64,000 nucleotides of DNA from an uncultured Chloroflexia bacterium (GTDB lineage: Bacteria > Chloroflexota > Limnocylindria > Limnocylindrales > CSP1-4): NCBI GenBank assembly GCA_963699965.1, contig CAVOVX010000007.1, forward strand, positions 14 to 64,013, given 5' to 3'. The translations under genes and the position numbers were made by a program. Position 1 is the stretch's first letter, and each line of letters begins with the position of its first letter. Below the pieces are notes generated by a model that saw only the letters and a program-made list of their open reading frames with translations, ran no database searches and was not told the DNA's origin. This document shows positions 9,074-27,012 of this stretch, in pieces.

Positions 9074-10089
9074 ATGGCATCCCGGATCGGCCTGGCGATC
9101 ATTGGCGCCGGGCGGATGGGTCGCAACCACGCTCGGTTGATCGCGGCCGGCGTGCCCGAGCTGTCGATCGTCGCGATCGGCGACGTCGACGGCGCCGCAG
9201 CCGACCGTCTGGCCGACGAGATCGGGAGCGCGACGGGCTTCGCCGACCCGCTCGCCGCGATCGCGGCGCCGGGCGTCGACGCCGTGCTCATCGCAGTCTC
9301 TTCCGACCAGCATCGGCACGTCGTGGAGGCCGCCGCGGCCGCGGGCCGGGACATCCTGTGCGAGAAGCCGCTGGCGCTGACCTCGCGGGCACGGAGCGCG
9401 ATCGCGGCCGCGGAGCGGGCCGGGGTCCGCCTCCAGGTGGGGCTCATGCGGCGCTGGGACCCGGACTACGTCCGGGCGCGTGCCCGGATCGCGGCCGGCG
9501 ACCTCGGACGGCTGTTGCTCTTCACGCCGCTGCAGTACGACAGGGACCCTCCACCGCTCGCGATCCTCGACCCGGCGGTAGCGGCGGGATCATGCTCGAC
9601 ATGGGCATCCACGAGTTCGACCTAGCTCGGTTGCTGATGGGCGCCGAGGTCGTCGAGGTCCAGGCAACCGGCTCGATCGTCCAGGCCCCGAGACCGCCGC
9701 GTTCGGGGACGTCGACACCGCCGTGGTGAGCCTCCGGTTCGCCTCGGGCGCGATCGGGACCGTCGAGATGAGCCGCGGCGACGACGTACGGCGAGGACGT
9801 CCGGACGGAGGTCCACGGCACCGACGGGAGCGCGTTCATCGGCGGCCTGCCGATCGCTGGCGGGTCGGCGATCGGCCGGGAGGGCGGTATCAGCTGGGAT
9901 GCGACGTCGCCGTCGATGCCGCGCTTCGCCCCGGCTTACATCGACCAGGCACGCGCCTTCGGCCGGTCGATCCAGAACGATGAGCCGGTAAGCCCCTCCG
10001 GCGCCGATGGCCGCGCAGCCTTCGTCATCGCGATGGCTGCCTCGCGCGCCCTGCAGGAGGCGGGGACCGTGGCCGTTGACGTGGTGTAG
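9074..10089 (+). pseudogene. Gfo/Idh/MocA family oxidoreductase (inositol dehydrogenase-like), at least 4 frame breaks
   Basis: GGAGGA RBS then ATG 9074. MASRIGLAIIGAGRMGRNHARLIAAG...DAVLIAVSSDQHRHVVEAAAAAGRDILCEKPLALT / GGIMLDMGIHEFDLARLLMG / VVSLRFASGAIGTVEMSR / YGEDVRTEVHGTDGSAFIGG...ADGRAAFVIAMAASRALQEAGTVAVDVV, stop TAG at 10087. Confidence 0.7.
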
Positions 10090-10139: not shown

Positions 10140-11333
10140 GTGGCAACTCTCGATTCGCTGATGTCACCGGAGGCGCCGGTCCGGTGGGACCCGCTCCGGG
10201 TGGTCGACGATCCGTATCCGACCTATCGCCGGCTTCGCAACGAAGCACCCCTTTATCGGGACGAGGAGCGAGCGATCTGGGCTCTATCCCGCTTCGACGA
10301 CGTCCAGGCCGCGGCGCGGGACTGGAAGACGTTCTCGAGCAGCGAAGGCAACGATCACGACGACGGACACCAGCTGTTCGAGCCGGCGGGTGACGTCGCC
10401 GGGATCGATCCGCCCGACCACACGCGCTTACGCAAGGCCCTTCACAGTGCCTTCAGCCCGTCGGAGATCAGAGCCAGGTTCGAGCCGTCGGCTCGCCTCA
10501 AGGCGAGGAGCCTGATCGACGCGTTCGCCGATCTCGGCCGGGCCGATCTGGCGCGTGACCTGGCCAGGCCGCTCCCCGGCGCGATGGTCTGCACGTGGCT
10601 CGGCTTCCCGGAGGACGACCATCCGCAGCTGCTGGACTGGTTCGGGCACTTGCTCGACCGCGTGCCCGGCGAGCATGGGCTGCCGGCGTCCGCACTCGAA
10701 GCCCGAGACCGGATGCGCGCCTACGTCGAGGCAGCGGCGGCTGAGCGTCGGGTCGCGCCCCGCGCCGATCTGTTGACGGTGCTCGTCCAGGCCCAAGCCG
10801 ACGGCGCCATCAGCGGGGATGAAGTGCTCGGCTGCTCGCTGCTCCTCTTCCTGGCTGGCATCACGACCACATCTGGGCTGATCTCGAATTCGCTCCTTCA
10901 CCTCGACCGATTCCCCGACCAGCGCGAGCTCATGCGTCTCGAACCGGAGCGCATTCCGGCCGCGATCGAGGAGCTCCTTCGCTTCGAGGCGCCAATCCAG
11001 ACCCTGATCCGGACGACCTCGAAGGAGGTCGAGATGCATGGGACGATCATTCCCAGGGGTGCCCACGTGAGCCTCATCTGGGCGTCAGCGAACCGCGACG
11101 AGCGACGCTGGACGGATCCGGATCGGCTCGACATCGGGCGTGCGCCGGAGCGGCACGTCGCCTTCGGCGAAGGGATCCACCACTGCATCGGAGCGCCGCT
11201 CGCGCGCCTCGAGGCCCGGATCGCCTTCGAGGAGCTGTTCGCGCGGATCCCGACGTATGCCGTCACTGGACCGATCAGACGGGTCAGCACACCGACCGAT
11301 CGCGCCCTGGAGAGCCTGCCCGTGGAGTTCTGA
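10140..11333 (+). CDS. Cytochrome P450 (intact)
   Basis: Heme-binding loop FGEGIHHCIGAPLARLE, ExxR in EELLRFEAP, I-helix-like LLLFLAGITTTSG, N-terminal YPTYRRLRNEAPLYRDEE. The start is taken as the GTG 6 nt after GGAGGG. Confidence 0.9.
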   Translation: MATLDSLMSPEAPVRWDPLRVVDDPYPTYRRLRNEAPLYRDEERAIWALSRFDDVQAAARDWKTFSSSEGNDHDDGHQLFEPAGDVAGIDPPDHTRLRKALHSAFSPSEIRARFEPSARLKARSLIDAFADLGRADLARDLARPLPGAMVCTWLGFPEDDHPQLLDWFGHLLDRVPGEHGLPASALEARDRMRAYVEAAAAERRVAPRADLLTVLVQAQADGAISGDEVLGCSLLLFLAGITTTSGLISNSLLHLDRFPDQRELMRLEPERIPAAIEELLRFEAPIQTLIRTTSKEVEMHGTIIPRGAHVSLIWASANRDERRWTDPDRLDIGRAPERHVAFGEGIHHCIGAPLARLEARIAFEELFARIPTYAVTGPIRRVSTPTDRALESLPVEF

Positions 11334-11349: not shown

Positions 11350-12216
11350 TCAGGCGGTCGTCGACGCGCCTTCCAGGAGCCCTCGGATCTGCTCGAACAT
11401 GAAGCGCGACGACTCCACGGCGCGCTCTTCCCAGGCGAAGACACAGCTCGTCAGGATCCCATCGAAGCCGACTCGCCGGAGCGCGTCGAAGCAGGCCACG
11501 AAGTCCACCTCGCCCTGGCCGATGTCGAGGTGCTGGTGGACGCGGGCCGGCGATCCGGGCGGGTTCACGATGTAGCGGTTGCCCGACGACGCCCGGTGGT
11601 TGAGCACGTCGGCGACGTGGACCTGGGTCAGGACGGGTGCGGCATAGTCGATCATCGCCCCGATGTCGTCGCCCAGGTAATAGGTGTGCGGCGCACAGAA
11701 CACGTAGCCGACGATCGGTGAGTCGATCCCTCGGACCAGGTCGACCGCCTCGGTGTTGCGCTCGATGAAGTCGTCCGGATGGGCCTCCAGGTTCAGCCGG
11801 ATCCCTTCCCGCTCGAAGATCGGCAGCAGCTCGTCCATCGAGCGCCAGAACTGCGCCTCGCTCCGGGCGGCCTGCTCCGGGCGACCGTTGAACTCGGAGT
11901 TCATGACCCCGCAGCCGACGTCGGCGGCGAGCTGGATCGCCCGCTTCCAGTAGCCGACGGCGGCCAGCCGCTCGTCTTCGTCCGGGCTCGACCAGCGGTA
12001 GAGGGGCAGGATCGACGCCAGCTCCATCCCCGTGTCGCGGAGCGCCGCCCGGAACTCCGCGACCTTGGCCCGATCCGCGCGCGGGTGCGTGAAGAACGGG
12101 ATGAAGTCAGGTCGTGGCGAGAGCTCGATCGAGTCGTAGCCGATGTCGGCTGCGATCCGACAGACCTCGGCGAACGGACGGTCGCGGAGCATGTACGGAT
12201 CGAGGGCGATCTTCAC
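11350..12216 (-). CDS. Sugar phosphate isomerase/epimerase (xylose isomerase-like TIM barrel), intact
   Basis: 288-aa ORF with IGYDSIELSP, MNSEFNGRP, RLNLEAHPDDF and HVHVADV..HLDIGQGEVDF. The start lies 2 nt downstream of the stop of the upstream large gene. Confidence 0.85.
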   Translation of the reverse strand: MKIALDPYMLRDRPFAEVCRIAADIGYDSIELSPRPDFIPFFTHPRADRAKVAEFRAALRDTGMELASILPLYRWSSPDEDERLAAVGYWKRAIQLAADVGCGVMNSEFNGRPEQAARSEAQFWRSMDELLPIFEREGIRLNLEAHPDDFIERNTEAVDLVRGIDSPIVGYVFCAPHTYYLGDDIGAMIDYAAPVLTQVHVADVLNHRASSGNRYIVNPPGSPARVHQHLDIGQGEVDFVACFDALRRVGFDGILTSCVFAWEERAVESSRFMFEQIRGLLEGASTTA

Positions 12217-12217: not shown

Positions 12218-14823
12218 TCACGAGCTCTCCCGTTTGGCCGTACCGATCCGCCTGCGGAGGTCGGCTCCGCTCGCCGCGATCCGGTCCACCATCCGGGTCC
12301 GCTGAGCCGGGTCCGCGATGGTGGCCATGGAGTCCAGCCATCGTACGGTGCCGTCGATGACCGCGAGGATCGCCTCGGCGTCCGACGTGACGCACAGCGG
12401 CCGGTCGACGACCTCCACGTAGACCGGCGACGTATGGGCGGCCATGCTCGTGTTGTAGGCCGACCGGATCTCGTAGTCGCTGCGCGACCTGGCCGCGATC
12501 CAGGACCCCGCCGCGATGGAGATCTCGGCGGCGAGCTGGAGGTCGTCCGTCGCCCGGTCGACCGTTCGCTCGGCCACGACGCGACCGTTCACGACGAGCT
12601 CGACGGACCGGATGATCGATTGGGCCGCTCGAGCCCGGGCGTGCACGGTGAGCCGGCCGCCGCCCGCGGGCAGGACCAGGACGTCGCCGGGTTCGTGCCC
12701 ATCGACCGACAGCGCCAGCATCGGACCGGAGGTCGCAAACGTCCGTCCGGCACGAACCGCCGCGGACCAGGCGGCGAACGTCGCCGCCGCGTCGGGATCG
12801 AGCCGGGCGTAGGTCCGGATGGCGCCGACCGGCATCTCGGCCGACATCTTGTCGGTCCCACCCAGGACCGGCACCCGGTAGCCGCAATTGAGGAAGCGGT
12901 ACCACTCGCTGATCGACGGGTTGTCGAGGCCAGGAGCGAACGTCTGCATCTCGACGGCGTCGATCCGGCCGGCCACGATCTCGGCAGCGATCTCGGCGAA
13001 CGGCAACGGGAAGTGCGCCCCGACGACGAGGCCGCCCTCGGCGTGGCAGCGGTCCGCCCAGTCGCCGAGCAGCTCGGTGACGGCTCCCCCGATCCGGCCC
13101 TCGGGCCCGCCGCCCGAGGCGAGCGGAACGGTGGGCCGGCGCGCTCCGAGCAGGGCGAGATGGCCGAGCACGTTCTGGCGGTTCTCGGTCCCGACGATGA
13201 CGATGTGACGACCGTCGGGATCGGCCTGTGAGCCCCAGGCGAGGTCGGTGACGTTGGTGAACTCGTCGCCCAGCTGGGTCGCCAGCAGGTGGACGAACAC
13301 GACGTCCTCGGCGGCCGCCTGGAGGAGCGCCGTCGAGGGGGCCAGGAAGTGGACATGGGAGTCCGCGGAGCGCCAGCCGTCCGGCCGCAGATCGATCGCT
13401 CGCTCGAGCGCGACCGTGACGTCACGAGTCCCCGGCTCGACGACCAGCGTGCGACGCACAGGGCGGTGATCGAACCCCTTCACGACCTCGATCGCCACCT
13501 CGCCCAGCGGCAGGTCGATCGAGAACGCGCCGGGCACGTACGCGTAGGTGTCACCTCCGAGGATCAACCCGGCGCCAGAGTCCTCCAGGAGCCCCGGATT
13601 GATCTCCTCGCGGTGACCGAGCGGCGGCAGGTAGCGCCCGTCCGCGGCCACGAACCGCACCCGGGACGGCGTTGGCGCGTCGTCGGCCAGGATCCGGACG
13701 TCGACCCGGACCTCGGGCGTCGGCAGCGGACGGATCGTGATCCCGCCGTCCGGGCTCGTCGTCCGGGAGCCGAGCCCGGCGACCGCGACCTCCCAGTCGC
13801 CGAACGTCAGCCGCGCGTCGGGCGCTGCAGCGACGTCGAGGACTGTTCGCGCTGATCCGCCAGCTCGATTGGAGCCGTCGCGGGTGAGTGGCTCCGCGGA
13901 TCCCCAGCCGACCGGTCCACGGTCCGGGCCGTCGTCCGACCCGCGCGGCAGCGGGAGCGGTCGGGCCCCGATGGCGACCCCCAGGTCCACCTCGGGCAGG
14001 CCGTCTGCCGGGCCTTCGACCAGGAGCTGCCGGCGTGGCTCCAGGACGAGCGGGTCCGCGGTGCCCGCGAAGAGGGTCAGCGCCGCAAGGACGACCGCCG
14101 TGCCCGGACGGCCTCCGCCGAGCGGCACGAGACGCAGCTCGACCGGATCGCCATCGCCCAGCGGGATGGCGTGGAGCCAGTAGGTCGCGTCGTCGTCCGC
14201 GGTCGGGACGAAGTCGGCGATGCCCACCTGGGCAGCGCCCCACGAGCCGGGCAGCATCGCGAGCAGCCCGGCCTGGCCGGCGGCGACGCGGCGGCCCGGT
14301 TCCTGCCGTGGATGTGGGCCACGCCAGTCGAGCGTCTCGTCCGCCCGGTGACCGATCGCCGCGAACGGGATGAACCCCCAGCCGATGATCCCGTCTGCGA
14401 TCTCGAATTGACGGCGGATCTCGACGGCTCGGGTCGTGCCATCGGCGAACGTGATCGCGTACCGGGCGAGCCGCTCGCCGGTCGGCAGGACCCAGCCCAC
14501 GGGTGTTTCGGACGCTCGCTTCCCCGCGGCATCGCGCCAGCTGTCCGCGAAGTGGGCCACCACGAGGTGGCTGGCTCGGCCCTGACCCCGGAGGTCGATC
14601 GTCAGCTCGTCATCGAGGAGCAGCCAGCGCCGTCCCGCAGCCCGTCGTCCGAGCTCGAACGGGAGGCCCCGGAACACGACGGGGCCGTCGGGCAGCCGCG
14701 CCAGGGCGGACCGGTACGCGGATCGAGCCGTTCGCCCAATTCGGCATCGGACGCGTTCCACGCCGCCGACAGGTCCACCGGACGCGCCAGAGGCGTCGCG
14801 ATGCGGCCTCGCCCGATGGCCAT
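12218..14823 (-). CDS. Large (about 868 aa) uncharacterised protein, paralog 1. N-terminal half unknown; C-terminal metal-dependent hydrolase-like domain. One frame break near 14720.
   Basis: ATG 14823 (MAIGRGRIATPLARPVDLSAAWNASDAEL), then the 898-aa ORF frame. Motifs ADSHVHF, GTENRQNVLGHLALLG, VVGAHFPLP and GGTDKMS give an HxH...H...H...D pattern. About 50-70% identical to the gene at 27013-29588. Confidence 0.7.
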
Positions 14824-14906: not shown

Positions 14907-16797
14907 ATGGACACCGTCCGGCTGACCGTGGGTCAGGCCATCGTCCGCTTCATGGCCAACCAGTACGCCGAACGAGACGGCCGCGAACAGCGCTTCATCG
15001 CCGGGGTCTGGGGCATCTTCGGGCACGGCAACGTCGCCGGCTTCGGCCAGGCCCTCGAGGAGCTCGGGGACGCCGAGGACATGCCCTACTACCGGCCCCA
15101 GAACGAGCAGGCCCAGGTCCATCTGGCGGCCGCGTTCGCGCGGCACAACAACCGCCTCCGGACATACGCCTGCACCTCGTCCGTCGGCCCGGGCGCGATG
15201 AACATGATCACCGGGGCTGCCGGCGGCGACCGTCAACCGGATCCCGGTGCTGCTCCTGCCGAGCGACTACTTCGCCAACCGGACGCCGGATCCCGTCCTC
15301 CAGCAGATCGAGCATCCGACCGAGCGCGACTTCGAGCGCCAACGACGCGTTCCGCCCGGTCTCCCGGTTCTTCGATCGGATCTCGCGTCCCGAGCAGCTG
15401 ATCGCCTCGCTGCCGGCGGCGTTTCGCGTGCTCACCGATCCGGCCGACACCGGGGCGGTCACGATCTCGCTGCCCGAGGACGTCCAGTCCGAGGCGTTCG
15501 ACTGGCCCGAGCGGTTCTTCGAGCGGCGGGTCTGGCGAGTTCGCCGACCGTTGCCTGAAGCGGCCGACGTGGCCGACGCGGTTCGCCTGATCCGGGCGTC
15601 GACGGCACCGGTGATCGTCGTCGGCGGGGGCGTGATCTACTCCGAGGCGACCGAGGCGCTGTCGGCGTTGGCGACGCAGTTCGGGATCCCGGTGGTCGAG
15701 ACGCAGGCTGGCAAGGGCGCCCTGCCCTGGAACCATCCAATGAATGCCGGCCCGGCGGGGACCAACGGCGGTCTGGCCGCCAACCGGCTCGCCCGCGACG
15801 CGGACCTGGTCATCTGCGTCGGGACGCGGATGGGCGACTTCGTGACCGCCTCACGCACGACGTTCCAGCACCCCGAGGCGAGGTTCATCGGCATCAACAT
15901 CGCGCCGATGGACGCCCACAAGCTGCGCGCGGTCCCGGTCGTGGCCGATGCCCGCGAGGCCCTGCGCGCGCTCGAGCGTGAGCTGGCGGCCGCCGGCTAC
16001 GCGGGGACCGCCGAACCGTATCGGCGGCGCGTCGCGGGGCTCAAGATGGAGTGGGACGACATCGTCACCAGCCTGCGAACGCGTGGATGGCGCTCCGGGC
16101 GATCTCGGCCAGGCCGAGGTCATCGGGATCGTGAACGACGTCGTGGGCGGTCACGCGACCGTGATCTGCGCCGCGGGCAGCCTGCCTGGTGACCTGCTCC
16201 GGCTGTGGCGACCCGAGGACCCCAAGGCCTACCACGTCGAATACGGCTTCTCGTGCATGGGCTACGAGATCGTGGCCGGGCTGGGCGTCCGGCTGGCCGA
16301 CCCGGATCGCGAGGTCGTCGTGATGGTCGGCGATGGCTCGTACCTGATGTTGAACTCCGAGATCGTCACCGCGGTCGCCGAGGGCCTCAAGCTCACGATC
16401 GTGGTCCTCGACAACCACGGGTTCCAGTGCATCCTCGCGCTCCAGCGGCTGGTCGGCGTGCCGGACTTCGGCAACGAGCTCCGCTTCCGCGACCGGTCGC
16501 GCAACCGGCTGACGGGCCCATACGTCCCGATCGACTTTCGGAAGCACGCCGAGGCGATGGGGGCCCTGGCGCCTCCAGGCGAACACGGCCGACGAGCTGC
16601 GCGCGGCGCTCGCCACGGCGCGCGCCGCCGATCGGATCGCGGTGATCGCGGTGCCCACCGAGCCGGAGAAGCGCGTCCCCGGCTTCGAATCGTGGTGGGA
16701 CGTCCCGGTGGCCGGTGCGAGCGAACAGGCCTCCGTCCGCGGCGCCCGGACGGCCTATGACGAGAAACGCCGCGAGCAGCGGACGGACATCCAGTAG
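14907..16797 (+). pseudogene. iolD: 3D-(3,5/4)-trihydroxycyclohexane-1,2-dione acylhydrolase IolD (ThDP enzyme), at least 4 frame breaks
   Basis: MDTVRLTVGQAIVRFMANQY...GIFGHGNVAGFGQALEE / [28 protein letters not shown] / [19 protein letters not shown]...VIVVGGGVIYS...ETQAGKGALPWNHP / GYEIVAGLGV..VVVMVGDGSYLMLNSEIVTA...LDNHGF / ...EKRVPGFESWWDVPVA, stop TAG at 16795. Confidence 0.85.
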
Positions 16798-16810: not shown

Positions 16811-18049
16811 ATGCCTGGTCCCGGGATCGAGCTCATCGGTGCCGAAGAGACGGCCGAGGTCATGGAGGTGCTGCAGAGTGGCTACCTGAGTCGCTACGGC
16901 CCCTCGGACGATCCACGGTTCGGCGCCAAGGTGCATCACATCGAGCAGACGATCGCCGGCCTGACCGGCGTCCGCTATGGGCTCGGTCTCCACGGTGGTG
17001 GGTCGGCGGCGCTCTGGATCACGCTGCTCAGCCTCGGGGTGGGTGCCGGCGACGAGGTGATCGTGCCCGGCTTCACCTATGTCGCCTCGATCTCGGCGAT
17101 CGTCTACACCGGCGCGACGCCGATCCTGGCGGAGATCGACCAGACCTTTGATCTCGACCCGGCCGACGTCGAAGCCAAGATCACCCCTCGGACAGCAGCC
17201 ATCCTCGTCGTCCACATGCTCGGCGCCCCGGCCCGGATCAACGAGTTGAAGGCGATCGCCGACCGGCACGGGATCCCTCTCGTCGAGGACTGCGCCCAGG
17301 CGTTCGGGGCGACCTACGAAGGGCGGGGCGTCGGCGGGTTCGGGACGGCGGGGACGTTCAGCTTCAACGAGTTCAAGACGATCACGTGCGGCGACGGCGG
17401 GATGATCGTCACCGATGACGAGACGCTGTACGAGCGATGCTTCGCGATGCACGATCAGGGTCATGCTCCTGACCGGCTCGAGTCGAAGTACGCTCCGAGG
17501 CCATTCCTGGGCATGAACTTCCGGATGACGGAGCTGTCCGGCGCCGTCCTTCTCGGCCAGGTTCGGAAGCTGGACCTGATCACCTCGCACCTGCGGGCCA
17601 ACAAGGCGATCATCAAGGACATGCTCGAGGAGGTCCCGACGATCGGTTTCCGGACCCTGACCGATCCGGAAGGCGACCTCGCGACACACCTCGTGGTGGT
17701 GCTCCCGTCTGCGGAGATCGCCGCGAATGTCGCCGAGGAGGTGGGCTCCAAGCCCCTGTCCGAGTCGGGCTGGCATACCTACAGCCGGATGAACCACCTG
17801 CTCGAGAAGCGGACGATCACCGGCAAGGGCTGCCCATTCGACTGCGCCGACCCGAGCCATCCGCACGGCGACTATCGGGCAGGCATGCTGCCCCAGACCG
17901 ACGCTCTCCTGGAGCGCTCGCTGAGCATCGGGATCGGGGTGAGCGATCCCAACCTCGCGCCGTTCGGCCTCCGGATGCGCGACGGGGAAGCCGAGGCCAG
18001 GCAGGTCGGGGCCACCTTCCGCGATGCCGTGATCAAGCACCGGGCGTGA
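16811..18049 (+). CDS. DegT/DnrJ/EryC1/StrS family PLP aminotransferase (intact); candidate inosose/inosamine aminotransferase
   Basis: 412-aa ORF with a GGAGAAG RBS. GGGSAALWITLLSLGVGAGDEVIVPGFTYVAS, LVEDCAQAFGA, and FSFNEFKTITCGDGGMIV (lysine motif). Lies between iolD and iolC. Confidence 0.85.
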   Translation: MPGPGIELIGAEETAEVMEVLQSGYLSRYGPSDDPRFGAKVHHIEQTIAGLTGVRYGLGLHGGGSAALWITLLSLGVGAGDEVIVPGFTYVASISAIVYTGATPILAEIDQTFDLDPADVEAKITPRTAAILVVHMLGAPARINELKAIADRHGIPLVEDCAQAFGATYEGRGVGGFGTAGTFSFNEFKTITCGDGGMIVTDDETLYERCFAMHDQGHAPDRLESKYAPRPFLGMNFRMTELSGAVLLGQVRKLDLITSHLRANKAIIKDMLEEVPTIGFRTLTDPEGDLATHLVVVLPSAEIAANVAEEVGSKPLSESGWHTYSRMNHLLEKRTITGKGCPFDCADPSHPHGDYRAGMLPQTDALLERSLSIGIGVSDPNLAPFGLRMRDGEAEARQVGATFRDAVIKHRA

Positions 18050-18065: not shown

Positions 18066-19029
18066 ATGATCCAGGCTGTCGTGGTCGGCCGGGTCGGCGT
18101 CGACTTCACGCCAACGACGCCTCGGACGACCCTGGCCGCGGCCGAATCGTTCAGCCGGGCGGTCGGCGGCTTTGCCGGGAACATCGCGACCGGTCTGGCC
18201 CGACTCGGCATCCGCGCGGCGGTCGTGTCGGCCGTTGGCGACGATGGTCACGGCGATCACGTCCGAGGATTCCTCGAAGGCGAGGGCGTCGACGTCGGCC
18301 ACATCGTCACCCGGGCCGGTTCCAGGACCCAGGTGGCCTTCTTCGAGACCTGGCCGCCGGACCGCTTCCCGGTGACCTTCTACCGGCCGTCGCCGGCCCC
18401 GGAGACGCGGCTCACGGTCGCCGATCTGCCGGCGGCCATGCTCGAGGTCGCGCCGCTCGTGGTCCTTTCAGGAGCCCTGTTCGCCGAACAGCCGGCCAGG
18501 TCGATGGCGCTTGCGCTCCTCGACGTCCGACGAGCGTCGCGGGACCGGCGACGCGTCTCGACGACGATCCTCGATCTCGACTGGCGACCGACCCTGTGGC
18601 CCGACCCGAGTGAGGCGCCCACGTTGATGGAACGCGCGGCACGGCTAAGCGACATCGTCATCGGCAGCAGCGAGGAGTTCGCGGCCGCCGGCCTGCGACC
18701 CGAGACCGGCTCGGGCGGCGGACCTGACCTGGTCGTCCTCAAGCACGGATCCGATGGCGTTTCGCTGGTGACCGATGGCGAGCGGCGCTCGCTGCCCGGA
18801 AATCGACGTGGAGGTCGTGTGCGCCACCGGTGCTGGCGATGCACTCGCGGCCGCCTTCGCCGCCGGCCTCCTGAACGGCCTCGACCCGCTCGTCGCCGTC
18901 GAGCGTGGCAACGCCGCGGGAGCCATCGTCGCGACGAGGCTGATGTGCAGCACCGCGATGCCGACGCCCGCCGAGATCGACCGACTGCTCGCCGACCAGG
19001 TGGTCGAGTCGCACGGAGCCAGGCCGTGA
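18066..19029 (+). CDS. iolC: 5-dehydro-2-deoxygluconokinase IolC (PfkB family), one frame break near 18795
   Basis: MIQAVVVGRVGVDFTP..FSRAVGGFAGNIATGLARLG...DLDWRPTLW..., then in another frame EIDVEVVCATGAGDALAAAFAAGLL..GNAAGAIVATRLMCSTAMPT. The TGA at 19027 overlaps the iolB GTG. Confidence 0.8.
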
Positions 19030-19952
19030 CGGCCGCCGACGAACGAGCCGCTCCGGTCATCCATCCGGCCAAGCTGCCGCAGCGCCAGCCACCCGAGTCG
19101 CTTCACGTCCGCCCGGATCCCGACGGGGTCGTCGCGACTGACCCCGTCCGCGCCGGGTGGCGCTACCTGTCCTTCCGGGCGTTCGCGCTCGACGCGGATG
19201 AGATCGTGCTGCTCGACCGCCCGGAGCAGGAGGCGGCGATTGTCACGATCTCGGGCGGCGGCGTCGAGGTCGCACTCGACGACGGTGCCCGCCTCCAGCT
19301 GACCGGGCGACCCACGGTGTTCGAGGGCATGCCGTGGACGGCCTACGTCCCCGCCGGCACGACCGCCCGGATCGTCGGCCGACCGCTCCCGGGGCGACGC
19401 GCGGTCGTCGCGGTCGCCCAGGCGCCGCTCAGCGGCCGGCCGATCGGGAAGCTGCGCCCCGAGATCGTCCGACCCGAAGACGTGGAGATCGAGATCCGGG
19501 GCGCCGGCAACGCCACCCGCCAGGTCAACAACATCATGATGCCCGACTTCGCGGCCGATCGGCTCCTCATCTGCGAGGTGTTCACGCCGTCGGGCAACTG
19601 GTCCGGTTGGCCGCCTCACAAGCACGACATCGACGATCCGCCGCGGGAGGCCGTGCTCGAGGAGACCTACTTCTACCAGCTGAGCCGTCCCGAGGGCTGG
19701 GCAATCCAGCGGGTCTACCACCGCGATGGGTCGGGCGATCGGATGATCGTCGTCCGCCATGGCGACCTGGTGATCGTCGACCAGGGGTACCACCCATTCG
19801 CTGCCACCCAGGGCTACGACGCCTACTACCTCAACGCCCTGGCGGGTGATCGCCGGACCATGGCCAACACGGACGACCCCGACCTCGCCTGGGTCCGTTC
19901 GCTGTGGCCGGCGATGGCGCCGGATCCGCGGCTTCCGCTGGTCCACCCGTGA
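19026..19952 (+). CDS. iolB: 5-deoxy-glucuronate isomerase IolB (intact)
   Basis: GWRYLSFRAF, EIRGAGNATRQVNNI, LLICEVFTPSGNWSGWPPHKHD, EETYFYQL, VVRHGDLVIVDQGYHPFAATQGYDAYYLNALAG. Confidence 0.85.
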   Translation: MTAADERAAPVIHPAKLPQRQPPESLHVRPDPDGVVATDPVRAGWRYLSFRAFALDADEIVLLDRPEQEAAIVTISGGGVEVALDDGARLQLTGRPTVFEGMPWTAYVPAGTTARIVGRPLPGRRAVVAVAQAPLSGRPIGKLRPEIVRPEDVEIEIRGAGNATRQVNNIMMPDFAADRLLICEVFTPSGNWSGWPPHKHDIDDPPREAVLEETYFYQLSRPEGWAIQRVYHRDGSGDRMIVVRHGDLVIVDQGYHPFAATQGYDAYYLNALAGDRRTMANTDDPDLAWVRSLWPAMAPDPRLPLVHP

Positions 19953-20947
19953 CGCCGGCGTCCGGCGCGGCTGGCGGTCGATCGACTGCGACCGCTGCGC
20001 CGAGCAGCGTCGCCGCAGCAGCGGTTGGCCGGCAGCGCCGGCTGCTCCGGCTCGGCGGCCAGCGCGGCGTCATCGCCGGGATCGCGATCGATCACCGCGA
20101 CAGCCTGCGAGTGATGCTCGACCGACGGGGCTCGACCGGCCTCGGGACGGCCGAGCTCCGCTCGTTGAAGCTCGCCCTGACCCGAGCCCTGGCCCCGGCC
20201 GCGACCGCCGTCATGCTCGACGAAGAGCTCGGCGGGCTGGCGCTCGAGGCGGGCGCCGTGCCGGCCACGGTCGCGTTGATCATGCCGCTCGAAGCCCAGG
20301 GCTACGAGACGACCGGCGACGGGCCGGCGACCACGCTGCTGGACGACTTCTCGCCGGCCGCCGCGCTTCGCTACGGCGCGGACGCGTGCAAGTTGCTCCT
20401 CCCGTACCGGATCGACGATGCCGGCGCGGCCGCCGGGCAGGAGGCGCTGGTCAGCTCGACGGCCGCTGCCTGTCACGAGCACGGCCTGCCACTCGTCATC
20501 GAACCTGTCGCCTACCGCCGGACCGGTGAGACCGAGGCAGCCTACCGCCGCTCGTATCCGCAGCTCGTGGTCGGTGCCGTGGAGCGACTCCAGCCGCTGG
20601 GCGCCGATCTGCTCAAGCTGCCGTTTCCCGTGCTGGACCTCGAGACGGCCCCCGAGTCGGTCGCCGTCGATGCCTGCCACGCGCTCGGTGCTGCCTGCCG
20701 GGACACGCCCTGGGCCCTCCTCGGGGCCGGCGCTGACGCCGACACGTTCGTCGAGCAGATACGATTCGCCGGCAGCGCCGGGGCGTCCGGCTTCCTGGCT
20801 GGCCGCGGCATCTGGGGCGCGGCGCTGAACGCCGATCCGGCAGAGGCCGAGCGGATCGCGATCGAGACCTGCCGGCCCGCCCTCGAACGATGCCGCGCGG
20901 TCGCCGAACGGTTCGCGAGGCCCCTGGGCGGGGCCCCGTTCGGCTGA
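19949..20947 (+). CDS. Class I aldolase (LacD/YihT-like); candidate functional replacement for the DKGP aldolase IolJ
   Basis: The GTG overlaps the iolB stop (GTGA). IAGIAIDHRDSLRVML, GADACKLLLPYRIDD, LPLVIEPVAY, GADLLKLPFP, GASGFLAGRGIWG. The ORF track starts it at 19904. Confidence 0.65.
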   Translation: MTPASGAAGGRSTATAAPSSVAAAAVGRQRRLLRLGGQRGVIAGIAIDHRDSLRVMLDRRGSTGLGTAELRSLKLALTRALAPAATAVMLDEELGGLALEAGAVPATVALIMPLEAQGYETTGDGPATTLLDDFSPAAALRYGADACKLLLPYRIDDAGAAAGQEALVSSTAAACHEHGLPLVIEPVAYRRTGETEAAYRRSYPQLVVGAVERLQPLGADLLKLPFPVLDLETAPESVAVDACHALGAACRDTPWALLGAGADADTFVEQIRFAGSAGASGFLAGRGIWGAALNADPAEAERIAIETCRPALERCRAVAERFARPLGGAPFG

Positions 20948-20973: not shown

Positions 20974-21816
20974 ATGCAGCTCGTCTACAACTCCAACTCG
21001 ACGATGCACCTCCCCGTGCTCATGCAGATCCGGGTCGCCCGGGAGACCGGCTGGGACGGGGTCTTCCTCCGAGCGGAGCACATCCGTCGGTACCTCGCCC
21101 AGGGCTACGAGGCGGCGAGCCTGCGCACGGCCCTGGCCGGCCTGGGCCCGCTGAATCTCGGGGCACTGCCCGACGTCGAACGCTGGCGACCTGCCGAGCA
21201 TGCGGCCATGCTCCGCGAGGCGGCCGGCCTCACCGAGCTGGCCGCGGAGATCGGCGCGTCGTACGTCCAGCTGCTGACCGGACCCGTGGCGCCGGGCGGG
21301 GCGTACAGCGGACCCTCGAGCCTGTCCGACGCCGAGCTCATCAAGGTGACCGCCCGGGCGGTTCGCTCGGTGGCCGACCTGGGCGGCCCGGCCGGCCTGC
21401 GCTACTACCTCGAGCCGGTTGCCTGGACGCCGCTGTCGACCATCGCCCAGGCGGTCCGGGTGATCGACGCCGCTGAGCGCGACAACGTCGGGCTGGTGCT
21501 GGACTTCTGGCATCTCTGGCAGCGAGGCACCACCCCGGACGGCATCGCCCGTCTCGATCCCCGGATCATCTTTGGCGTCGACCTCGGGGACTCCCTGGGA
21601 CCGCCGGGCGCCGGCACGGCCGACCAGCGGAGCCGGTGCGTCTGGCCCGGCGATGGTGACATCCCGCTCCGCGAGTGGGTCGCCGCGGTCCGCTCGACCG
21701 GCTTCGACGGCTGGTGGGACAACGAGCTCTACAGCCCGCTCCACTGGGAGTCTGCTGACCCGTTTGCCGTCGGAGCGGGCTTGCTCGAGGTGCTCCGGAC
21801 GTTGCTGCGGGACTGA
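20974..21816 (+). CDS. Sugar phosphate isomerase/epimerase (xylose isomerase-like TIM barrel), intact
   Basis: MQLVYNSNSTM..., YVQLLTGP, RYYLEPVAWTP, GLVLDFWHLW, PGDGDIPLREWVAAVRSTGFDGWWDNELY. Confidence 0.8.
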   Translation: MQLVYNSNSTMHLPVLMQIRVARETGWDGVFLRAEHIRRYLAQGYEAASLRTALAGLGPLNLGALPDVERWRPAEHAAMLREAAGLTELAAEIGASYVQLLTGPVAPGGAYSGPSSLSDAELIKVTARAVRSVADLGGPAGLRYYLEPVAWTPLSTIAQAVRVIDAAERDNVGLVLDFWHLWQRGTTPDGIARLDPRIIFGVDLGDSLGPPGAGTADQRSRCVWPGDGDIPLREWVAAVRSTGFDGWWDNELYSPLHWESADPFAVGAGLLEVLRTLLRD

Positions 21817-22070: not shown

Positions 22071-23153
22071 GTGCCATCCAGCGACGGCCAGCGCCGGACC
22101 GACGGTCAACACCGGACGGGCGGCCCGCGTCGTCGGATCCTCCTCAAGGATGTCGCCCAGCGAGCGAACGTCTCGGGCTCGACCGCGTCGCGGGCCCTGG
22201 CCGACGACAAGCGGATCAGCGCTGCCACCCGGCAGCTGGTCAAGGCCGCCGCCGCCGAGCTGCACTACGTGCCGGATGCGACGGCCCGCAGCCTTCGGGT
22301 CCGGCGGACTCGGACGCTGGGTCTCCTCCTGCCCGACCTGCGCGACCCGGTCCACGGCCAGGTCGCGTCGGCGTTCGAGCAGGAGGCGCGCCAGCAGGGG
22401 TACGTCGTGATGGTCGTGGCTGGCGAACGCGACCTCGCGCGCGAGCGGCTCGCCTTGAGGGCCTTTGCCGAGCACGGGACCGATGGGGTTGCGGTCGTGT
22501 CCGGCGTGTTGCCGCCGAACGAGCTGCGCGAGCGGGTCGATCCCGACCGGCTCGTCCTCGTCTGGCCCGACCATCGGAGCCTGCCTCGACACGCTGGCCC
22601 TAACGTCCCGGGCGTCATCCAGACCGATGACGCGAGCGGCGTGCGGGCTGCGGTTGACCACCTGGTCGACAGCGGCTGCCGGCGGGTCGCCTATGCCGAG
22701 AGCGGGCGGCGCGCCTCGAACACGATCCGAGCCGAGACCGTCGCCGCGACCCTCCGCGATCGAGGCATCCGCGCTCCGCTGCGCAGGTTCCCCGCCCCGG
22801 TCGATTCGTGGCGGGCACCCGCGGCGCTCGCTGCGGAGATCGCTGCGGACCCCCCCGAGGCCCTCGTCTGCTACGACGACCAGCTCGCGCTCGGGCTCAT
22901 GGACGCGCTCCGTGGCCTGGGCGTCCGGATCCCCGACGACATGGGCATCGTCGGGTTCGACGGGATCCCCTTTGCCGCCATCTCGAACCCCCGGCTGACG
23001 ACCGTGGTGGTTCCGTCGGCGGAGATGGGCCGGGCTGCGGCGTCGTCGGCGATCCAGGCCGTACACGACGGCCGGCTGCCGGACGGCGTGCTGTTGCCGG
23101 TCGAGATGGTCGTCCGCGAGAGTACCCGGGTCGTGTCCGTGAGCCGTCCATGA
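22071..23153 (+). CDS. LacI family transcriptional regulator (intact core; start uncertain)
   Basis: HTH ILLKDVAQRANVSGSTASRALADDKRISAATRQLVKAAAAELHYVPDATARSLR, then a periplasmic-binding-fold effector domain. The start is taken as the in-frame GTG at 22071 with GGAG upstream. The ORF track opens at 21852. Confidence 0.85.
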   Translation: MPSSDGQRRTDGQHRTGGPRRRILLKDVAQRANVSGSTASRALADDKRISAATRQLVKAAAAELHYVPDATARSLRVRRTRTLGLLLPDLRDPVHGQVASAFEQEARQQGYVVMVVAGERDLARERLALRAFAEHGTDGVAVVSGVLPPNELRERVDPDRLVLVWPDHRSLPRHAGPNVPGVIQTDDASGVRAAVDHLVDSGCRRVAYAESGRRASNTIRAETVAATLRDRGIRAPLRRFPAPVDSWRAPAALAAEIAADPPEALVCYDDQLALGLMDALRGLGVRIPDDMGIVGFDGIPFAAISNPRLTTVVVPSAEMGRAAASSAIQAVHDGRLPDGVLLPVEMVVRESTRVVSVSRP

Positions 23154-23208
23154 TCGTCGACCGCCGGCCGCGGATGCCGACCGAGCTCCGCCTCGCCCGG
23201 TCGTTCCG

Positions 23209-24106
23209 TTGCCGCTGACACCGGATGGGGGCGTCGACCCCGGGGTCGACCTGGCCGACCTCGCCCGGCGCGGCCGGCTGCTCGTGATCGACTCGGTCGC
23301 GCACAGCGGTGCCGGGCACATCGGCGGCCCGCTATCCGCGATGGACCTCCTCGTCGCGCTCTACTTCAGGGTCCTGCGCATTCGTCCGGACGCACCCGAC
23401 TGGCCTGACCGCGATCGGTTCATCCTGTCGAAGGGCCACTCCGCGATCGGACTCTACGTGGTCATGGCCCTGCGCGGCTACTTCCCGGTCGAGGAGCTCG
23501 CGACCTTCGATGCGGGTGACAGCCGGCTGCAGGGGCACCCCGACATGACGCGGCTACCTGGGCTCGAGGCATCGACGGGTTCGCTCGGCCAGGGCCTCGC
23601 CGTCGGGCTCGGGATCGCCCTCGGAGCCCGCCTGCGCGGGCTCGGGTTCCACACGTTCGTGATGCTCGGCGACGGCGAGACCCAGGAAGGGATGGTCTGG
23701 GAGAGCGTGATGGTCGCGGCCAAGTACGGGCTCGGCAATCTCACCGCGATCGTCGACTGCAACGGCCTCCAGCAGTACGGCTGGCCGCCGGTGCCGGGCG
23801 AGGATGCGCGCGGCGACCGACGCGACCCGCTCGCCGGGACCCGCCTCCGCGACGCCCTCGAAGCCTTCGGCTGGCGGGTCCTGGAGATCGACGGGCACGA
23901 CCATGAGGCGATCGTGGCCGCCTGCGAGGACGCTCGCGGCGCTGGCCGGGCCGGCCGGCCGACGGCGATCCTGGCGGCAACCGTCAAGGGGCGGGGATTG
24001 TCGTTCACGGAGGGTCGCACCGAGTGGCACGCGCGCGTGGCGACGGCCGACGACGTTGCGGCGGCCCGAGTCGGAGCTCGGTCTCGCCGAGGACGCCGGG
24101 TCGTGA
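23209..24106 (+). CDS. Transketolase, N-terminal (ThDP pyrophosphate-binding) section. As written it is fused to the C-terminal section; a 1-nt shift near 24065 restores a stop at 24104.
   Basis: HSGAGHIGGPLSAMDLLVALYF, ILSKGHSAIGLYV, RLQGHPD, STGSLGQGLAVGLG, MLGDGETQEGMVWES, DCNGLQQ. The alternative frame ends ...ELGLAEDAGS-TGA. Confidence 0.75.
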
Positions 24107-26967: not shown

Positions 26968-27012
26968 CCCGGGTTGCCGAGGGTGCGCGCCCCCGGCCGG
27001 GCCGGACCCGAG

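What the first reader, a model, noticed from the sequence alone, without database searches (positions are those of the whole stretch)
16811..18049. DegT/StrS-type aminotransferase inserted between iolD and iolC
An intact sugar/cyclitol-type PLP aminotransferase sits inside the core catabolic operon, with spacings of 14 and 17 nt to its neighbours. This family contains the L-glutamine:scyllo-inosose aminotransferases of aminocyclitol antibiotic biosynthesis (StsC, BtrS type).

In a catabolic operon the reverse reaction, inosamine to scyllo-inosose, would route an aminocyclitol directly to the IolE/IolD steps. Canonical iol operons that I know of do not contain such a gene.
Basis: partly seen in the sequence, partly recalled or inferred. 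Interest (0 to 1): 0.65.

Follow-up and report, generated by a model that had tools for sequence, protein, structure and literature searches.

The report
Aminotransferase gene inside inositol-breakdown operon
A well-conserved sugar-type aminotransferase gene sits inside the inositol-degradation operon of uncultured soil Chloroflexota; it most likely removes the amino group from amino-inositols so the ring can be degraded by the ordinary inositol pathway, but no enzyme assay exists.

Summary
Window 16811..18049 (+) is an intact 412-aa DegT/DnrJ/EryC1/StrS aminotransferase lying between iolD and iolC, 13 and 16 nt from them.

In this window iolD carries four net 1-nt insertions. One more insertion makes iolC and iolB look fused. 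A 93%-identical contig has all of these genes intact, so I read the frameshifts as probable long-read assembly errors.

The enzyme is under strong purifying selection: 49 of 52 differences from that relative are at third codon positions. It is not specifically related to StsC/BtrS-type inosose aminotransferases. Its closest solved relative is KdnA (37% identity), which was reported to make Kdo8N from Kdo before incorporation into lipid A. It fails every NDP-sugar aminotransferase equivalog cut-off.

In the Chloroflexota clade of this protein, 33 of 51 species-level loci have IolD within the fetched flanks (at most 10 kb each side). They show three operon architectures with different lower pathways. 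Inositol-dehydrogenase-like, IolE-/IolI-like and PotABCD-type (amine) transporter genes recur nearby.

Best reading, at about 0.45: a catabolic inosamine:2-oxoacid transaminase that supplies inosose. This rests on context only. I found no prior description.

The parts
16811..18049 (+). DegT/DnrJ/EryC1/StrS-family PLP aminotransferase, 412 aa, intact; the finding
   Evidence: PF01041 E 3.6e-80. KdnA 5k8b scores 266 bits, 37% identity over residues 4-378. K189, D160 and Q163 are conserved. 49 of 52 nt differences from L003 are at third codon positions.
14907..16797 (+). iolD (THcHDO acylhydrolase), broken in this window by four net 1-nt insertions (15224, 15330, 16082, 16570)
   Evidence: Three-frame translation. 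Indel map against L003. The intact orthologue in L001 scores 876 bits against TIGR04377, cut-off 715.
18066..19029 (+). iolC (5-dehydro-2-deoxygluconokinase); a 1-nt insertion at 18801 makes it read through into iolB
   Evidence: TIGR04382 matches residues 3-238 of the fused ORF. Indel at 18801. The L001 orthologue is 320 aa and scores 249.5 bits against a cut-off of 300.
19026..19952 (+). iolB (5-deoxy-glucuronate isomerase)
   Evidence: TIGR04378 scores 265 bits, cut-off 205.
19904..20947 (+). DeoC/LacD-family aldolase, the presumed IolJ equivalent; start uncertain (20114 by homology to L003)
   Evidence: PF01791. PRK12858 scores 180.6 bits against a cut-off of 184. Coordinates.
20974..21816 (+). 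Xylose-isomerase-like TIM barrel, IolI-like (inosose isomerase type)
   Evidence: PF01261. Best solved relative is B. subtilis IolI 1i60, E 1e-14. No IolE-model hit.
22071..23153 (+). LacI-family regulator
   Evidence: PF00356, PF13377. Coordinates by homology.
23170..25071 (+). Split transketolase (TktN 23170-24106, TktC 24115-25071); reads as one ORF here, with a 1-nt insertion at 24073
25088..26967 (+). Second inositol-dehydrogenase-like Gfo/Idh/MocA gene (25088-26132) and second iolB-like gene (26129-26967); both frameshifted here
   Evidence: The L003 orthologues score 333 bits on TIGR04380 (cut-off 355) and 245 bits on TIGR04378 (cut-off 205). Indels.
12218..14823 (-). Lineage-restricted protein of about 868 aa with a CehA/McbA-type metallohydrolase domain, divergent from iolD; function unknown
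   Evidence: NF038032 scores 148 bits. No Pfam hit and no PDB hit. Only 438 relatives at E<=1e-5 among the 8,000 candidates scored. A paralogue is present in 27 of 51 loci.
11350..12216 (-). Xylose-isomerase-like TIM barrel immediately downstream of the 868-aa gene
   Evidence: PF01261 E 2.8e-50. Only weak IolO and IolE hits.
10200..11333 (+). Cytochrome P450
   Evidence: PF00067. Coordinates.
9074..10089 (+). Inositol 2-dehydrogenase-like Gfo/Idh/MocA gene, heavily frameshifted here
   Evidence: TIGR04380 matches partially. The L002 orthologue scores 309 bits against a cut-off of 355. Indels.
26990..29631 (-). Second metallohydrolase-domain protein of about 864 aa (paralogue), frameshifted here
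   Evidence: NF038032, 144 bits in L001.
29834..34000 (+). PotABCD-type ABC transporter: PotA-like ATPase, PotD-like binding protein and permeases; frameshifted here
   Evidence: tblastn hits. The L009 ATPase scores 364 bits on TIGR01187, cut-off 355.6, and its binding protein hits PotD weakly. The solved relatives carrying a functional name are polyamine-binding proteins.
35079..41905 (.). Second cyclitol-type module: IolM-like Zn-ADH (35079-35993 +), IolE-like TIM barrel (36164-37033 +), class-III aminotransferase (37098-38477 -), Gfo/Idh/MocA (38498-39688 -), TIM barrel (39807-40733 -), transaldolase-like (40805-41905 -)
   Evidence: The same module adjoins the iol cluster in L006 and L010.

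Best explanation
The gene encodes a cytoplasmic PLP-dependent aminotransferase that works on a free aminocyclitol, meaning one not linked to a nucleotide. It transfers the amino group of an inosamine (scyllo-, myo- or chiro-type) to a 2-oxo acid and releases the matching inosose.

The inosose then enters the inositol pathway. If needed it is first isomerised by the IolI-like TIM barrel. An IolE-like dehydratase acts on it, IolD opens the ring, and IolB/IolC/aldolase finish the breakdown. In sister clusters the last steps are done by a transketolase or by an HpcH-aldolase lower branch instead.

Uptake probably goes through the neighbouring PotABCD-type transporter, with control by the LacI-family repressor.

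Shown here: family membership, catalytic residues, intactness, purifying selection, operon position and conserved gene neighbourhood. Inferred: substrate identity, reaction direction, amino acceptor and transporter specificity.
For: 1. The enzyme looks competent. PF01041 matches at 270 bits. The Schiff-base lysine K189 (SFNEFK), D160 and Q163 are invariant. The family length of 412 aa is kept. Against a 93%-identical relative, 49 of 52 nt differences are third-position and only 2 aa change, the most third-position-biased pattern in the cluster.

2. It is not an NDP-sugar enzyme by the available tests. Every NCBIfam NDP-sugar aminotransferase equivalog falls far below its cut-off. None of the neighbouring genes I annotated matched a family used in NDP-sugar synthesis or glycosyl transfer.

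3. The closest solved relative by a wide margin is KdnA, at 266 bits against at most 172 for the rest. Kdo was reported to be converted directly to Kdo8N before incorporation into lipid A (review PMC4402001).

4. Neighbourhood. In the Chloroflexota clade, 33 of 51 species-representative loci have IolD within the fetched flanks (at most 10 kb each side), 38 have a xylose-isomerase-like TIM barrel and 32 have a Gfo/Idh/MocA gene. In the sister clade only 1 of 25 has IolD.

5. The gene recurs in three architectures whose lower pathway differs: IolC/IolJ, transketolase, or HpcH aldolase with a 2-hydroxyacid dehydrogenase. IolD, dehydrogenase and TIM barrel stay constant, which places the aminotransferase at the ring level.

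6. IolD passes the equivalog cut-off in types A and B, at 876 and 810 bits against 715. In type B the gene is divergently adjacent to an IolE-like dehydratase (172 bits) and is followed on the same strand by a Gfo/Idh/MocA gene.

7. A PotA/PotD-type transporter lies within the fetched flanks in 16 of 51 loci. In L029 it follows the gene directly, and in type C it follows aminotransferase-LacI.

8. MosB shows that a DegT-type enzyme can interconvert scyllo-inosose and scyllo-inosamine with glutamate (PMC6668481).
Against: No biochemical data exist for this protein or for any relative above 37% identity.

It is no closer to characterised inosose aminotransferases (5w70 157 bits, 7b0d 143, BtrS 128) than to perosamine synthetase or ArnB (172 and 167 bits).

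KdnA transaminates a terminal aldehyde of a sugar acid, not a ring ketone.

No gene inside the type A operon reaches the IolE model. The IolE-like genes score 161-172 bits against a cut-off of 290.

In the sister clade at 51-58% identity, the few loci I annotated show other carbohydrate contexts: GH39- and AXE1-like genes, DeoR with a DeoC aldolase, or M81 peptidase with PhyH. The family's substrate range is therefore broader than cyclitols.

No abundant environmental inosamine source is known to me.

The AlphaFold model was too poor (pLDDT 56) to inspect the pocket.
Confidence: 0.45

Rival explanations
1. The enzyme deaminates a free amino sugar or another amino-polyol that is not a carbocycle. 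The resulting keto-sugar is handled by the Gfo/Idh/MocA and TIM-barrel enzymes. The link to IolD then reflects a multi-substrate carbohydrate island rather than a shared pathway.
For: Aminotransferase + Gfo/Idh/MocA + TIM-barrel triads occur without IolD in some loci (L052, L080). Annotated sister-clade contexts include glycoside-hydrolase and esterase genes. The PotD-type transporter and LacI regulator fit any amino sugar. A second GFO/TIM/aminotransferase module lies in the window.
Against: Within the Chloroflexota clade IolD is the most frequent specific partner, at 33 of 51 loci, across three architectures. IolD has no known role outside cleavage of the cyclohexane-1,2-dione ring (established knowledge of the iol pathway). 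In type A the gene sits between iolD and iolC.
Confidence: 0.2
2. The enzyme works on an open-chain aldehyde formed after ring opening, as KdnA does on 8-oxo-Kdo. Candidates are 5-deoxy-glucuronate, the aldehyde left by transketolase, and malonic semialdehyde (giving beta-alanine, in place of the IolA that was not found in the window).
For: KdnA, the closest solved relative, aminates the terminal aldehyde of a free sugar acid (own knowledge of the reaction). No aldehyde dehydrogenase of IolA size was seen among the window ORFs I annotated. In type C the gene follows iolB and transketolase.
Against: The gene persists where the lower pathway changes (IolC/IolJ, Tkt or HpcH), so no single downstream aldehyde other than 5-deoxy-glucuronate is common to all. 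Type B loci other than L030 show no IolB within the flanks. Aldehyde-to-amine conversion would divert carbon from catabolism. No DegT-family enzyme is known to me to act on malonic semialdehyde.
Confidence: 0.12
3. The enzyme runs in the biosynthetic direction. Together with an inositol dehydrogenase it turns inositol into an inosamine, as in the IdhA + MosB route, to make a signal, a solute or a building block.
For: In type B loci the aminotransferase is followed on the same strand by a Gfo/Idh/MocA gene. That pair is the two-enzyme set shown to make scyllo-inosamine from myo-inositol (PMC6668481). Transamination is reversible.
Against: In type A the gene is embedded in iolD-iolC-iolB-aldolase next to a LacI-family regulator. 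No tailoring, export-only or glycosyl-transfer genes were found. An uptake-type ABC system is linked.
Confidence: 0.1
4. It is an ordinary nucleotide-sugar aminotransferase, as IMG names it ('dTDP-4-amino-4,6-dideoxygalactose transaminase'), and lies in the iol operon by chance.
For: The automatic name appears in many sources. Perosamine synthetase and ArnB are the next best solved relatives after KdnA.
Against: WecE-type models score 119-151 bits against cut-offs of 375-435, and every other NDP-sugar equivalog also fails. None of the annotated neighbours belongs to a family used in NDP-sugar synthesis or glycosyl transfer. Linkage to IolD is conserved in 33 of 51 loci and three architectures.
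Confidence: 0.03

Closest known systems
KdnA of Shewanella oneidensis (8-amino-3,8-dideoxy-D-manno-octulosonate transaminase, PDB 5k8b)
   Same: It is the best solved relative: 266 bits, 37% identity over almost the full length. It shares the DegT fold-type-I motifs, including the SF..K lysine. Kdo was reported to be converted to Kdo8N directly, before incorporation into lipid A.
   Different: KdnA is biosynthetic, serving LPS. It aminates a terminal aldehyde made by the Fe-alcohol dehydrogenase KdnB, and no such partner is present here. The CPF(D)C motif at residues 341-345 of this family is absent from KdnA. At 37% identity the two are not orthologues.
MosB of Sinorhizobium meliloti L5-30 (3-O-methyl-scyllo-inosose / scyllo-inosose:L-glutamate aminotransferase, rhizopine synthesis)
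   Same: MosB is an aminotransferase shown in vitro to interconvert inosose and inosamine, and it works together with an inositol dehydrogenase (PMC6668481). This is the reaction proposed here, run in reverse.
   Different: MosB is biosynthetic, sits in a mos locus and is expressed in nodules. I could not obtain its sequence, so its relatedness to this protein is untested.
StsC / BtrS / NeoB-type L-glutamine:(2-deoxy-)scyllo-inosose aminotransferases of aminoglycoside biosynthesis
   Same: Same Pfam family, acting on free cyclitol ketones.
   Different: There is no special affinity. 5w70 scores 157 bits, 7b0d 143 and 2c7t 128, all below KdnA and below two NDP-sugar enzymes. They are biosynthetic and lie in antibiotic gene clusters.
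Canonical myo-inositol catabolic operon (Bacillus subtilis iolABCDEFGHIJ and relatives)
   Same: IolD, IolB, an IolC-like kinase, an aldolase, an IolG-like dehydrogenase, an IolI-like isomerase and a repressor are all present.
   Different: It contains the aminotransferase. It lacks an equivalog-grade IolE inside the operon and has no IolA in the window. It is flanked by two metallohydrolase-domain genes of about 870 aa, a P450, a split transketolase and a PotABCD-type transporter instead of an IolT/IolF-type or ribose-type transporter.
Rhizopine (scyllo-inosamine) catabolism genes mocCABRDEF of S. meliloti
   Same: That system also feeds an aminocyclitol into inositol catabolism. It also uses a Gfo/Idh/MocA dehydrogenase (MocA), and MocC is reported as essential for catabolism with unknown function. 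From memory MocC belongs to the xylose-isomerase-like TIM-barrel family; I did not check this. The P450 here could stand in for the MocDEF demethylase.
   Different: The gene set mocCABRDEF described in the papers read contains no aminotransferase, and those papers describe no deamination step. Here the regulator is LacI-type rather than MocR, and the transporter is PotD-type rather than MocB.

Membership tests
DegT/DnrJ/EryC1/StrS aminotransferases (Pfam PF01041) | Score above the Pfam gathering threshold | tested here: met
   270.3 bits against a threshold of 19.8, E 3.6e-80.
DegT/DnrJ/EryC1/StrS aminotransferases (Pfam PF01041) | Schiff-base lysine in the SF(H/N/D)xxK motif, and the aspartate that binds the PLP ring nitrogen | tested here: met
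   K189 in SFNEFK aligns with the lysine of the SFDSVK motif in KdnA. D160 and Q163 lie in EDCAQA. All three are invariant in the 14-sequence alignment and across the 82-sequence alignment inspected.
PMP-dependent sugar 3-dehydratases of the same Pfam family (ColD / E1 type) | Catalytic lysine replaced by histidine | tested here: not met
   Lysine is retained at position 189. ColD and E1 entries score only 78-97 bits.
Nucleotide-sugar aminotransferase equivalogs (ArnB, PseC, LegC, DesI, WecE) | Score at or above the NCBIfam curated cut-off | tested here: not met
   LegC 186 bits against a cut-off of 420. ArnB 179 against 631. PseC 173 against 423.5. DesI 164 against 650. WecE-type 151 against 375 and 119 against 435.
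Nucleotide-sugar aminotransferase equivalogs (ArnB, PseC, LegC, DesI, WecE) | Neighbourhood with nucleotidyltransferase, 4,6-dehydratase or glycosyltransferase genes | tested here: not met
   Genes from 8.7 to 42 kb were assigned to other families. Related loci show the same pattern.
L-glutamine:scyllo-inosose / 2-deoxy-scyllo-inosose aminotransferases (StsC, BtrS, NeoB type) | Specific sequence affinity: closer to these than to other DegT subfamilies | tested here: not met
   These score 128-157 bits, against 266 for KdnA and 167-172 for perosamine synthetase and ArnB. This is a ranking by score, not a full phylogeny.
L-glutamine:scyllo-inosose / 2-deoxy-scyllo-inosose aminotransferases (StsC, BtrS, NeoB type) | Transamination between inosose and inosamine | not testable with these tools
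   This needs an enzyme assay.
KdnA orthologues (Kdo8N synthesis) | High identity to KdnA and a KdnB Fe-alcohol-dehydrogenase partner in an LPS context | tested here: not met
   37% identity. No Fe-ADH or Kdo gene was found in the cluster.
myo-Inositol catabolic (iol) operon | IolD equivalog (TIGR04377) | tested here: met
   The orthologues in L001 and L030 score 876 and 810 bits against a cut-off of 715. The window copy gives only 224 bits on one frame piece because of the frameshifts.
myo-Inositol catabolic (iol) operon | IolB equivalog (TIGR04378) | tested here: met
   265 bits against a cut-off of 205 in the window.
myo-Inositol catabolic (iol) operon | IolC, IolG and IolE equivalogs | tested here: inconclusive
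   IolC scores 249.5 against a cut-off of 300. The IolG-like genes score 309 and 333 against 355. The IolE-like gene at window 36164-37033 scores 161 against 290. All are the best family hits but fall below the cut-offs.
myo-Inositol catabolic (iol) operon | IolA (malonate-semialdehyde dehydrogenase) | tested here: not met
   No aldehyde dehydrogenase was found among the annotated window ORFs. Frameshifted stretches were not searched exhaustively.
Rhizopine catabolism (moc) locus | MocR regulator, MocB binding protein and the MocDEF oxygenase system | tested here: not met
   The regulator is LacI-type. The transporter is PotA/PotD-type. A P450 is present, and no Rieske-oxygenase or ferredoxin-reductase family was hit among the annotated ORFs.

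The most novel reading that the evidence does not exclude
The aminotransferase is the key enzyme of a dedicated aminocyclitol-utilisation island in uncultured soil Limnocylindria-type Chloroflexota. The island would combine PotABCD-like uptake, two lineage-restricted 870-aa metallohydrolases that free the aminocyclitol from a conjugate, a DegT-type and a class-III aminotransferase (enough for mono- and diamino-cyclitols), and entry at the inosose level into three alternative lower pathways. That would be the first described catabolic route for inosamines by direct transamination. It would also offer an answer to a step the rhizopine papers I read do not describe, namely how the amino group is removed.
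Probability: 0.35. Interest if true: 0.7.

Novelty: new variant of a known kind. Interest (0 to 1): 0.5.

Why it matters
Aminocyclitols include rhizopines and the cores of aminoglycosides and of hygromycin-type antibiotics. Their biosynthesis is well studied. The rhizopine papers I read describe no deamination step, and MocC is still described as a protein of unknown function.

A conserved transaminase wired into the inositol ring-cleavage pathway gives a concrete, cloneable candidate for that step. It would also correct a widespread automatic name ('dTDP-4-amino-4,6-dideoxygalactose transaminase').

In addition it points to a nitrogen-and-carbon resource used by an abundant but uncultured soil lineage. 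If the enzyme is reversible and selective, it could serve to make or sense inosamines in the rhizopine-signalling work.

Tried and rejected
1. AlphaFold2 model of the aminotransferase from a 14-sequence alignment. Mean pLDDT was 55.7, too poor for pocket analysis, so I ran no fold search on it.

2. The 868-aa neighbour. It has no Pfam hit even at E<=5 and no PDB sequence or profile hit. The AlphaFold2 model reached pLDDT 66.8, with the presumed catalytic part below 50. Foldseek against the PDB returned only Ig-like or beta-sandwich domain matches, none at E<=0.001. Its function remains unknown.

3. Obtaining MosB for a direct comparison. It was not in the paper's supplements. The top tblastn hits in plasmids were unrelated DegT genes in heptose/LPS-type or NRPS clusters. 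No full phylogeny with characterised inosose aminotransferases could be built, so I used phmmer score ranking against the PDB as a proxy.

4. LacI operator search. No inverted repeat was reported in the iolD upstream region. TTGCAA and TTGCGCAA palindromes are visible by eye but I did not pursue them.

5. Reading iolD, iolC and iolB as genuine pseudogenes or a genuine fusion. I rejected this as the likelier reading. Substitutions against L003 remain third-position biased in iolD (75 of 93). Similar 1-nt indels hit many genes in this window, and split genes appear in other long-read MAG contigs.

6. Recent insertion of a foreign gene. Rejected, because GC3 (0.86) matches the neighbours and synteny is conserved across species.

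7. The Gattis et al. 2013 KdnA paper is not held, so I used a review instead.
Full report
OBSERVATION. Window 16811..18049 (+) is a 412-aa ORF starting at ATG, with AGGAGA 6-11 nt upstream. It matches Pfam DegT_DnrJ_EryC1 (PF01041) at E 3.6e-80.

The list of mechanical ORFs also offers a GTG start at 16715. The 16811 start fits better. The 120 best-scoring homologue clusters are 411-430 aa, nearly all 412, at 80-100% identity, and they cover the query from residue 1.

The upstream gene stops at 16795-16797 and the downstream gene starts at 18066. The true gaps are therefore 13 and 16 nt. No + strand terminator-like or promoter-like site lies in between.

The neighbours are iolD upstream and iolC-iolB downstream, followed by a DeoC/LacD-type aldolase, a TIM barrel and a LacI-family regulator.

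STATE OF THE NEIGHBOURS. Its parts lie in three frames.

I aligned the window to a 93.4%-identical contig (L003; ENA ERZ25039492 contig_78415). That contig encodes an aminotransferase differing by only two residues, and its iolD (628 aa), iolC (320 aa) and iolB (308 aa) are intact. The alignment shows single-base insertions in the window at 15224, 15330, 16082 and 16570 within iolD. It shows another at 18801 in iolC, which makes iolC run into the iolB frame and look like a 628-aa fusion. Many more indels lie in the IolG-like gene, transketolase, the second dehydrogenase, the second iolB and the ABC transporter.

Substitutions in iolD are still 75 of 93 at third codon positions. Other contigs of the same kind (names of the form contig_NNNN, MFD isolates) show different split genes. 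I therefore read these frameshifts as probable long-read consensus errors rather than decay. This is an inference that only read mapping can settle.

THE PROTEIN. It keeps the Schiff-base lysine (K189, SFNEFK) together with D160 and Q163 in EDCAQA. All three are invariant in the family. It is therefore a transaminase and not a ColD/E1-type dehydratase.

Against NCBIfam it reaches no curated cut-off. LegC-type scores 186 against 420, ArnB 179 against 631, PseC 173 against 423.5, DesI 164 against 650, and WecE-type 151 against 375.

Against all PDB sequences the best match is KdnA of Shewanella (5k8b) at 266 bits over residues 4-378, with 37% identity. It stands far ahead of perosamine synthetase (172 bits) and ArnB (167). 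It is also far ahead of the inosose enzymes: 5w70 at 157, 7b0d at 143 and BtrS 2c7t at 128, with NtdA at 103.

Kdo was reported to be converted directly to Kdo8N before incorporation into lipid A (review PMC4402001). The protein therefore belongs to a large KdnA-like branch. In the 50%-identity representative library, 4,445 clusters match at E<=1e-30. It has no special kinship with StsC/BtrS.

Types A and B carry HGGGSAAL where relatives have SGTSAL. A CPF(D)C motif at residues 341-345 is shared by the family but not by KdnA. I do not know what either feature means.

SELECTION. Against L003 the gene has 52 nt differences. Forty-nine are at third positions and only two change the amino acid. 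This is the most third-position-biased pattern of any gene in the cluster.

COMPARATIVE CONTEXT. A scan of one genome per GTDB species returned 80 loci. All are MAGs. Those above about 59% identity are almost all titled Chloroflexota (many 'Candidatus Limnocylindrales'). Those at 51-58% are mostly Acidobacteriota, Planctomycetota and Anaerolineae.

I mapped neighbours with tblastn, using intact reference proteins from L001-L004 and L030. I also built a neighbour-joining tree rooted on KdnA. In the Chloroflexota clade, 33 of 51 loci have IolD within the fetched flanks (at most 10 kb each side). Thirty-eight have a xylose-isomerase-like TIM barrel, 32 a Gfo/Idh/MocA gene, 27 the large metallohydrolase-domain protein and 16 a PotA/PotD-type transporter. 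In the sister clade 1 of 25 has IolD. Several loci without IolD are short contigs.

Three architectures recur.

- Type A is the window plus 13 species: TIM- Big- | IolD AT IolC IolB aldolase [EamA] IolI-like-TIM LacI [Tkt GFO IolB2] Big-.
- Type B covers about 16 species: Big+ [SDR IolD HpcH-aldolase GFO 2-hydroxyacid-DH IolE-like]- | AT GFO+.
- Type C covers about 7 species: GFO- TIM- Big- | IolD TktN TktC IolB AT LacI PotA PotD.

IolD passes the TIGR04377 cut-off in types A and B (876 and 810 bits against 715). IolB passes TIGR04378. The type B neighbour is IolE-like at 172 bits.

The aminotransferase of type B is closer to that of type A. The IolD of type C is closer to that of type A. The two genes therefore did not simply co-diverge, and the pairing was kept or re-made. 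The lower pathway changes between types (kinase/aldolase, transketolase, or HpcH aldolase) while IolD, dehydrogenase and TIM barrel persist. This argues that the aminotransferase acts at the ring level.

THE WIDER ISLAND IN THE WINDOW. Upstream lie an IolG-like dehydrogenase (frameshifted), a P450, a TIM barrel and the 868-aa protein.

Downstream of the second large protein lies a PotABCD-type ABC system. The ATPase passes the TIGR01187 polyamine subfamily cut-off in L009. The binding protein's solved relatives that carry a functional name are polyamine-binding proteins, all distant, at E 1e-12 or weaker.

Beyond it come an IolM-like Zn-ADH, an IolE-like TIM barrel (161 bits), a class-III aminotransferase, a Gfo/Idh/MocA gene, a TIM barrel and a transaldolase-like gene at 35-42 kb. 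In L006 and L010 this second module abuts the iol cluster. The in-operon TIM barrel at 20974-21816 is IolI-like (1i60, E 1e-14).

MECHANISM. The best-supported reading runs as follows. An amine-bearing cyclitol is imported. The DegT-type enzyme transfers its amino group to a 2-oxo acid. The inosose is isomerised if necessary (IolI-like), dehydrated (IolE-like) and opened by IolD.

The feasibility of the chemistry is shown by MosB, which interconverts scyllo-inosose and scyllo-inosamine with glutamate (PMC6668481). Everything about substrate and direction is inference from context, and I put it at 0.45.

The rivals and their weights are as follows.

- A non-carbocyclic amino sugar, 0.2.
- An open-chain aldehyde after ring opening, by analogy with KdnA, 0.12.
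- The biosynthetic direction, since GFO + aminotransferase equals the IdhA + MosB module, 0.1.
- A stray NDP-sugar enzyme, 0.03.

COMPARISON AND NOVELTY. The protein is a member of PF01041. It is not a member of any curated NDP-sugar equivalog, nor of the StsC/BtrS group by score, nor an orthologue of KdnA.

The operon is an iol operon by IolD and IolB. It deviates through the aminotransferase, the missing in-operon IolE, the absent IolA, the two large hydrolase-domain genes, the P450 and the amine-type transporter.

It resembles rhizopine catabolism (moc) in purpose, but it shares neither regulator, transporter nor demethylase type. The moc gene set described in the papers I read has no aminotransferase, and those papers describe no deamination step. 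Full-text searches found no description of a DegT aminotransferase in a catabolic iol operon.

I class it as a new variant of a known kind.

LIMITS. There is no biochemical evidence and no cultured carrier. No usable structure model was obtained. No true phylogeny with MosB or StsC could be built. The large neighbour's function is unresolved. The window itself is error-prone.

Noticed in passing
window 9000-34000 (e.g. 15224, 15330, 16082, 16570, 18801, 24073, 25856, 26179-26942): Many single-base indels relative to a 93%-identical contig break iolD, the IolG-like gene, the second dehydrogenase, the second iolB and the ABC transporter. They also create false iolC-iolB and TktN-TktC fusions. 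Substitution patterns remain third-position biased, so these look like long-read assembly errors rather than pseudogenes.
   Followed up: partly
window 12218-14823 (-) and about 26990-29631 (-): Two paralogous proteins of about 865 aa flank the iol cluster. They have no Pfam domain, no PDB relative and only an NCBIfam CehA/McbA metallohydrolase domain. Only 438 relatives were found among the 8,000 candidates scored, and all that carry an organism name are Chloroflexota. They co-occur with the aminotransferase in 27 of 51 loci. Structure prediction and fold search did not reveal a function.
   Followed up: yes
window 35079-41905: A second cyclitol-type module holds an IolM-like Zn-ADH, an IolE-like TIM barrel, a class-III (HemL/GntE-like) aminotransferase, a levoglucosan-dehydrogenase-like Gfo/Idh/MocA gene, another TIM barrel and a transaldolase-like gene. 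It abuts the iol cluster directly in L006 and L010. Two different aminotransferases in one island would suit a diaminocyclitol.
   Followed up: partly
window 29834-34000; L029 11278-13529; L035, L042 and L043 about 12300-14600: A PotA/PotD-type (polyamine-family) ABC transporter lies next to the cluster. In several species it directly follows the aminotransferase, or aminotransferase-LacI. This differs from the ribose-type or MFS transporters usual for inositol.
   Followed up: partly
window 10200-11333 (+): A cytochrome P450 sits between the IolG-like dehydrogenase and the TIM/868-aa pair. It is present in only some species (4 of 51 loci). It may be an O-demethylase for methyl-inositols such as pinitol or ononitol, or for O-methyl-inosamine. 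This was not tested.
   Followed up: no
window 20974-21816 (+): The TIM barrel inside the operon is IolI-like (inosose isomerase, 1i60, E 1e-14) and not IolE-like. No gene in the type A operon reaches the IolE model.
   Followed up: yes
aminotransferase residues 60-68 and 338-352 (window about 16988-17014 and 17822-17866): Type A and B proteins have HGGGSAAL, with one extra residue, where relatives have the usual SGTSAL motif. A CPF(D)C pair (C341, C345) is conserved across the family but absent from KdnA. The significance of both is unknown.
   Followed up: partly
L018 and L069 (same contig CAWHRB010000003.1); L036; L075: Single genomes carry two or three paralogous DegT-type aminotransferases (38-71% identity to the L001 reference copy) in neighbouring cyclitol-type clusters. 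This suggests several related substrates.
   Followed up: no
window 55303-56433 (-): A PIG-L family (GlcNAc-PI de-N-acetylase type) protein lies elsewhere in the window. Its link to the island, if any, is unknown.
   Followed up: no
window 14824-14906: The divergent intergenic region between the 868-aa gene and iolD contains TTGCAA and TTGCGCAA palindromes that could be a LacI-type operator. The repeat finder reported nothing, and I did not search for the motif elsewhere.
   Followed up: no
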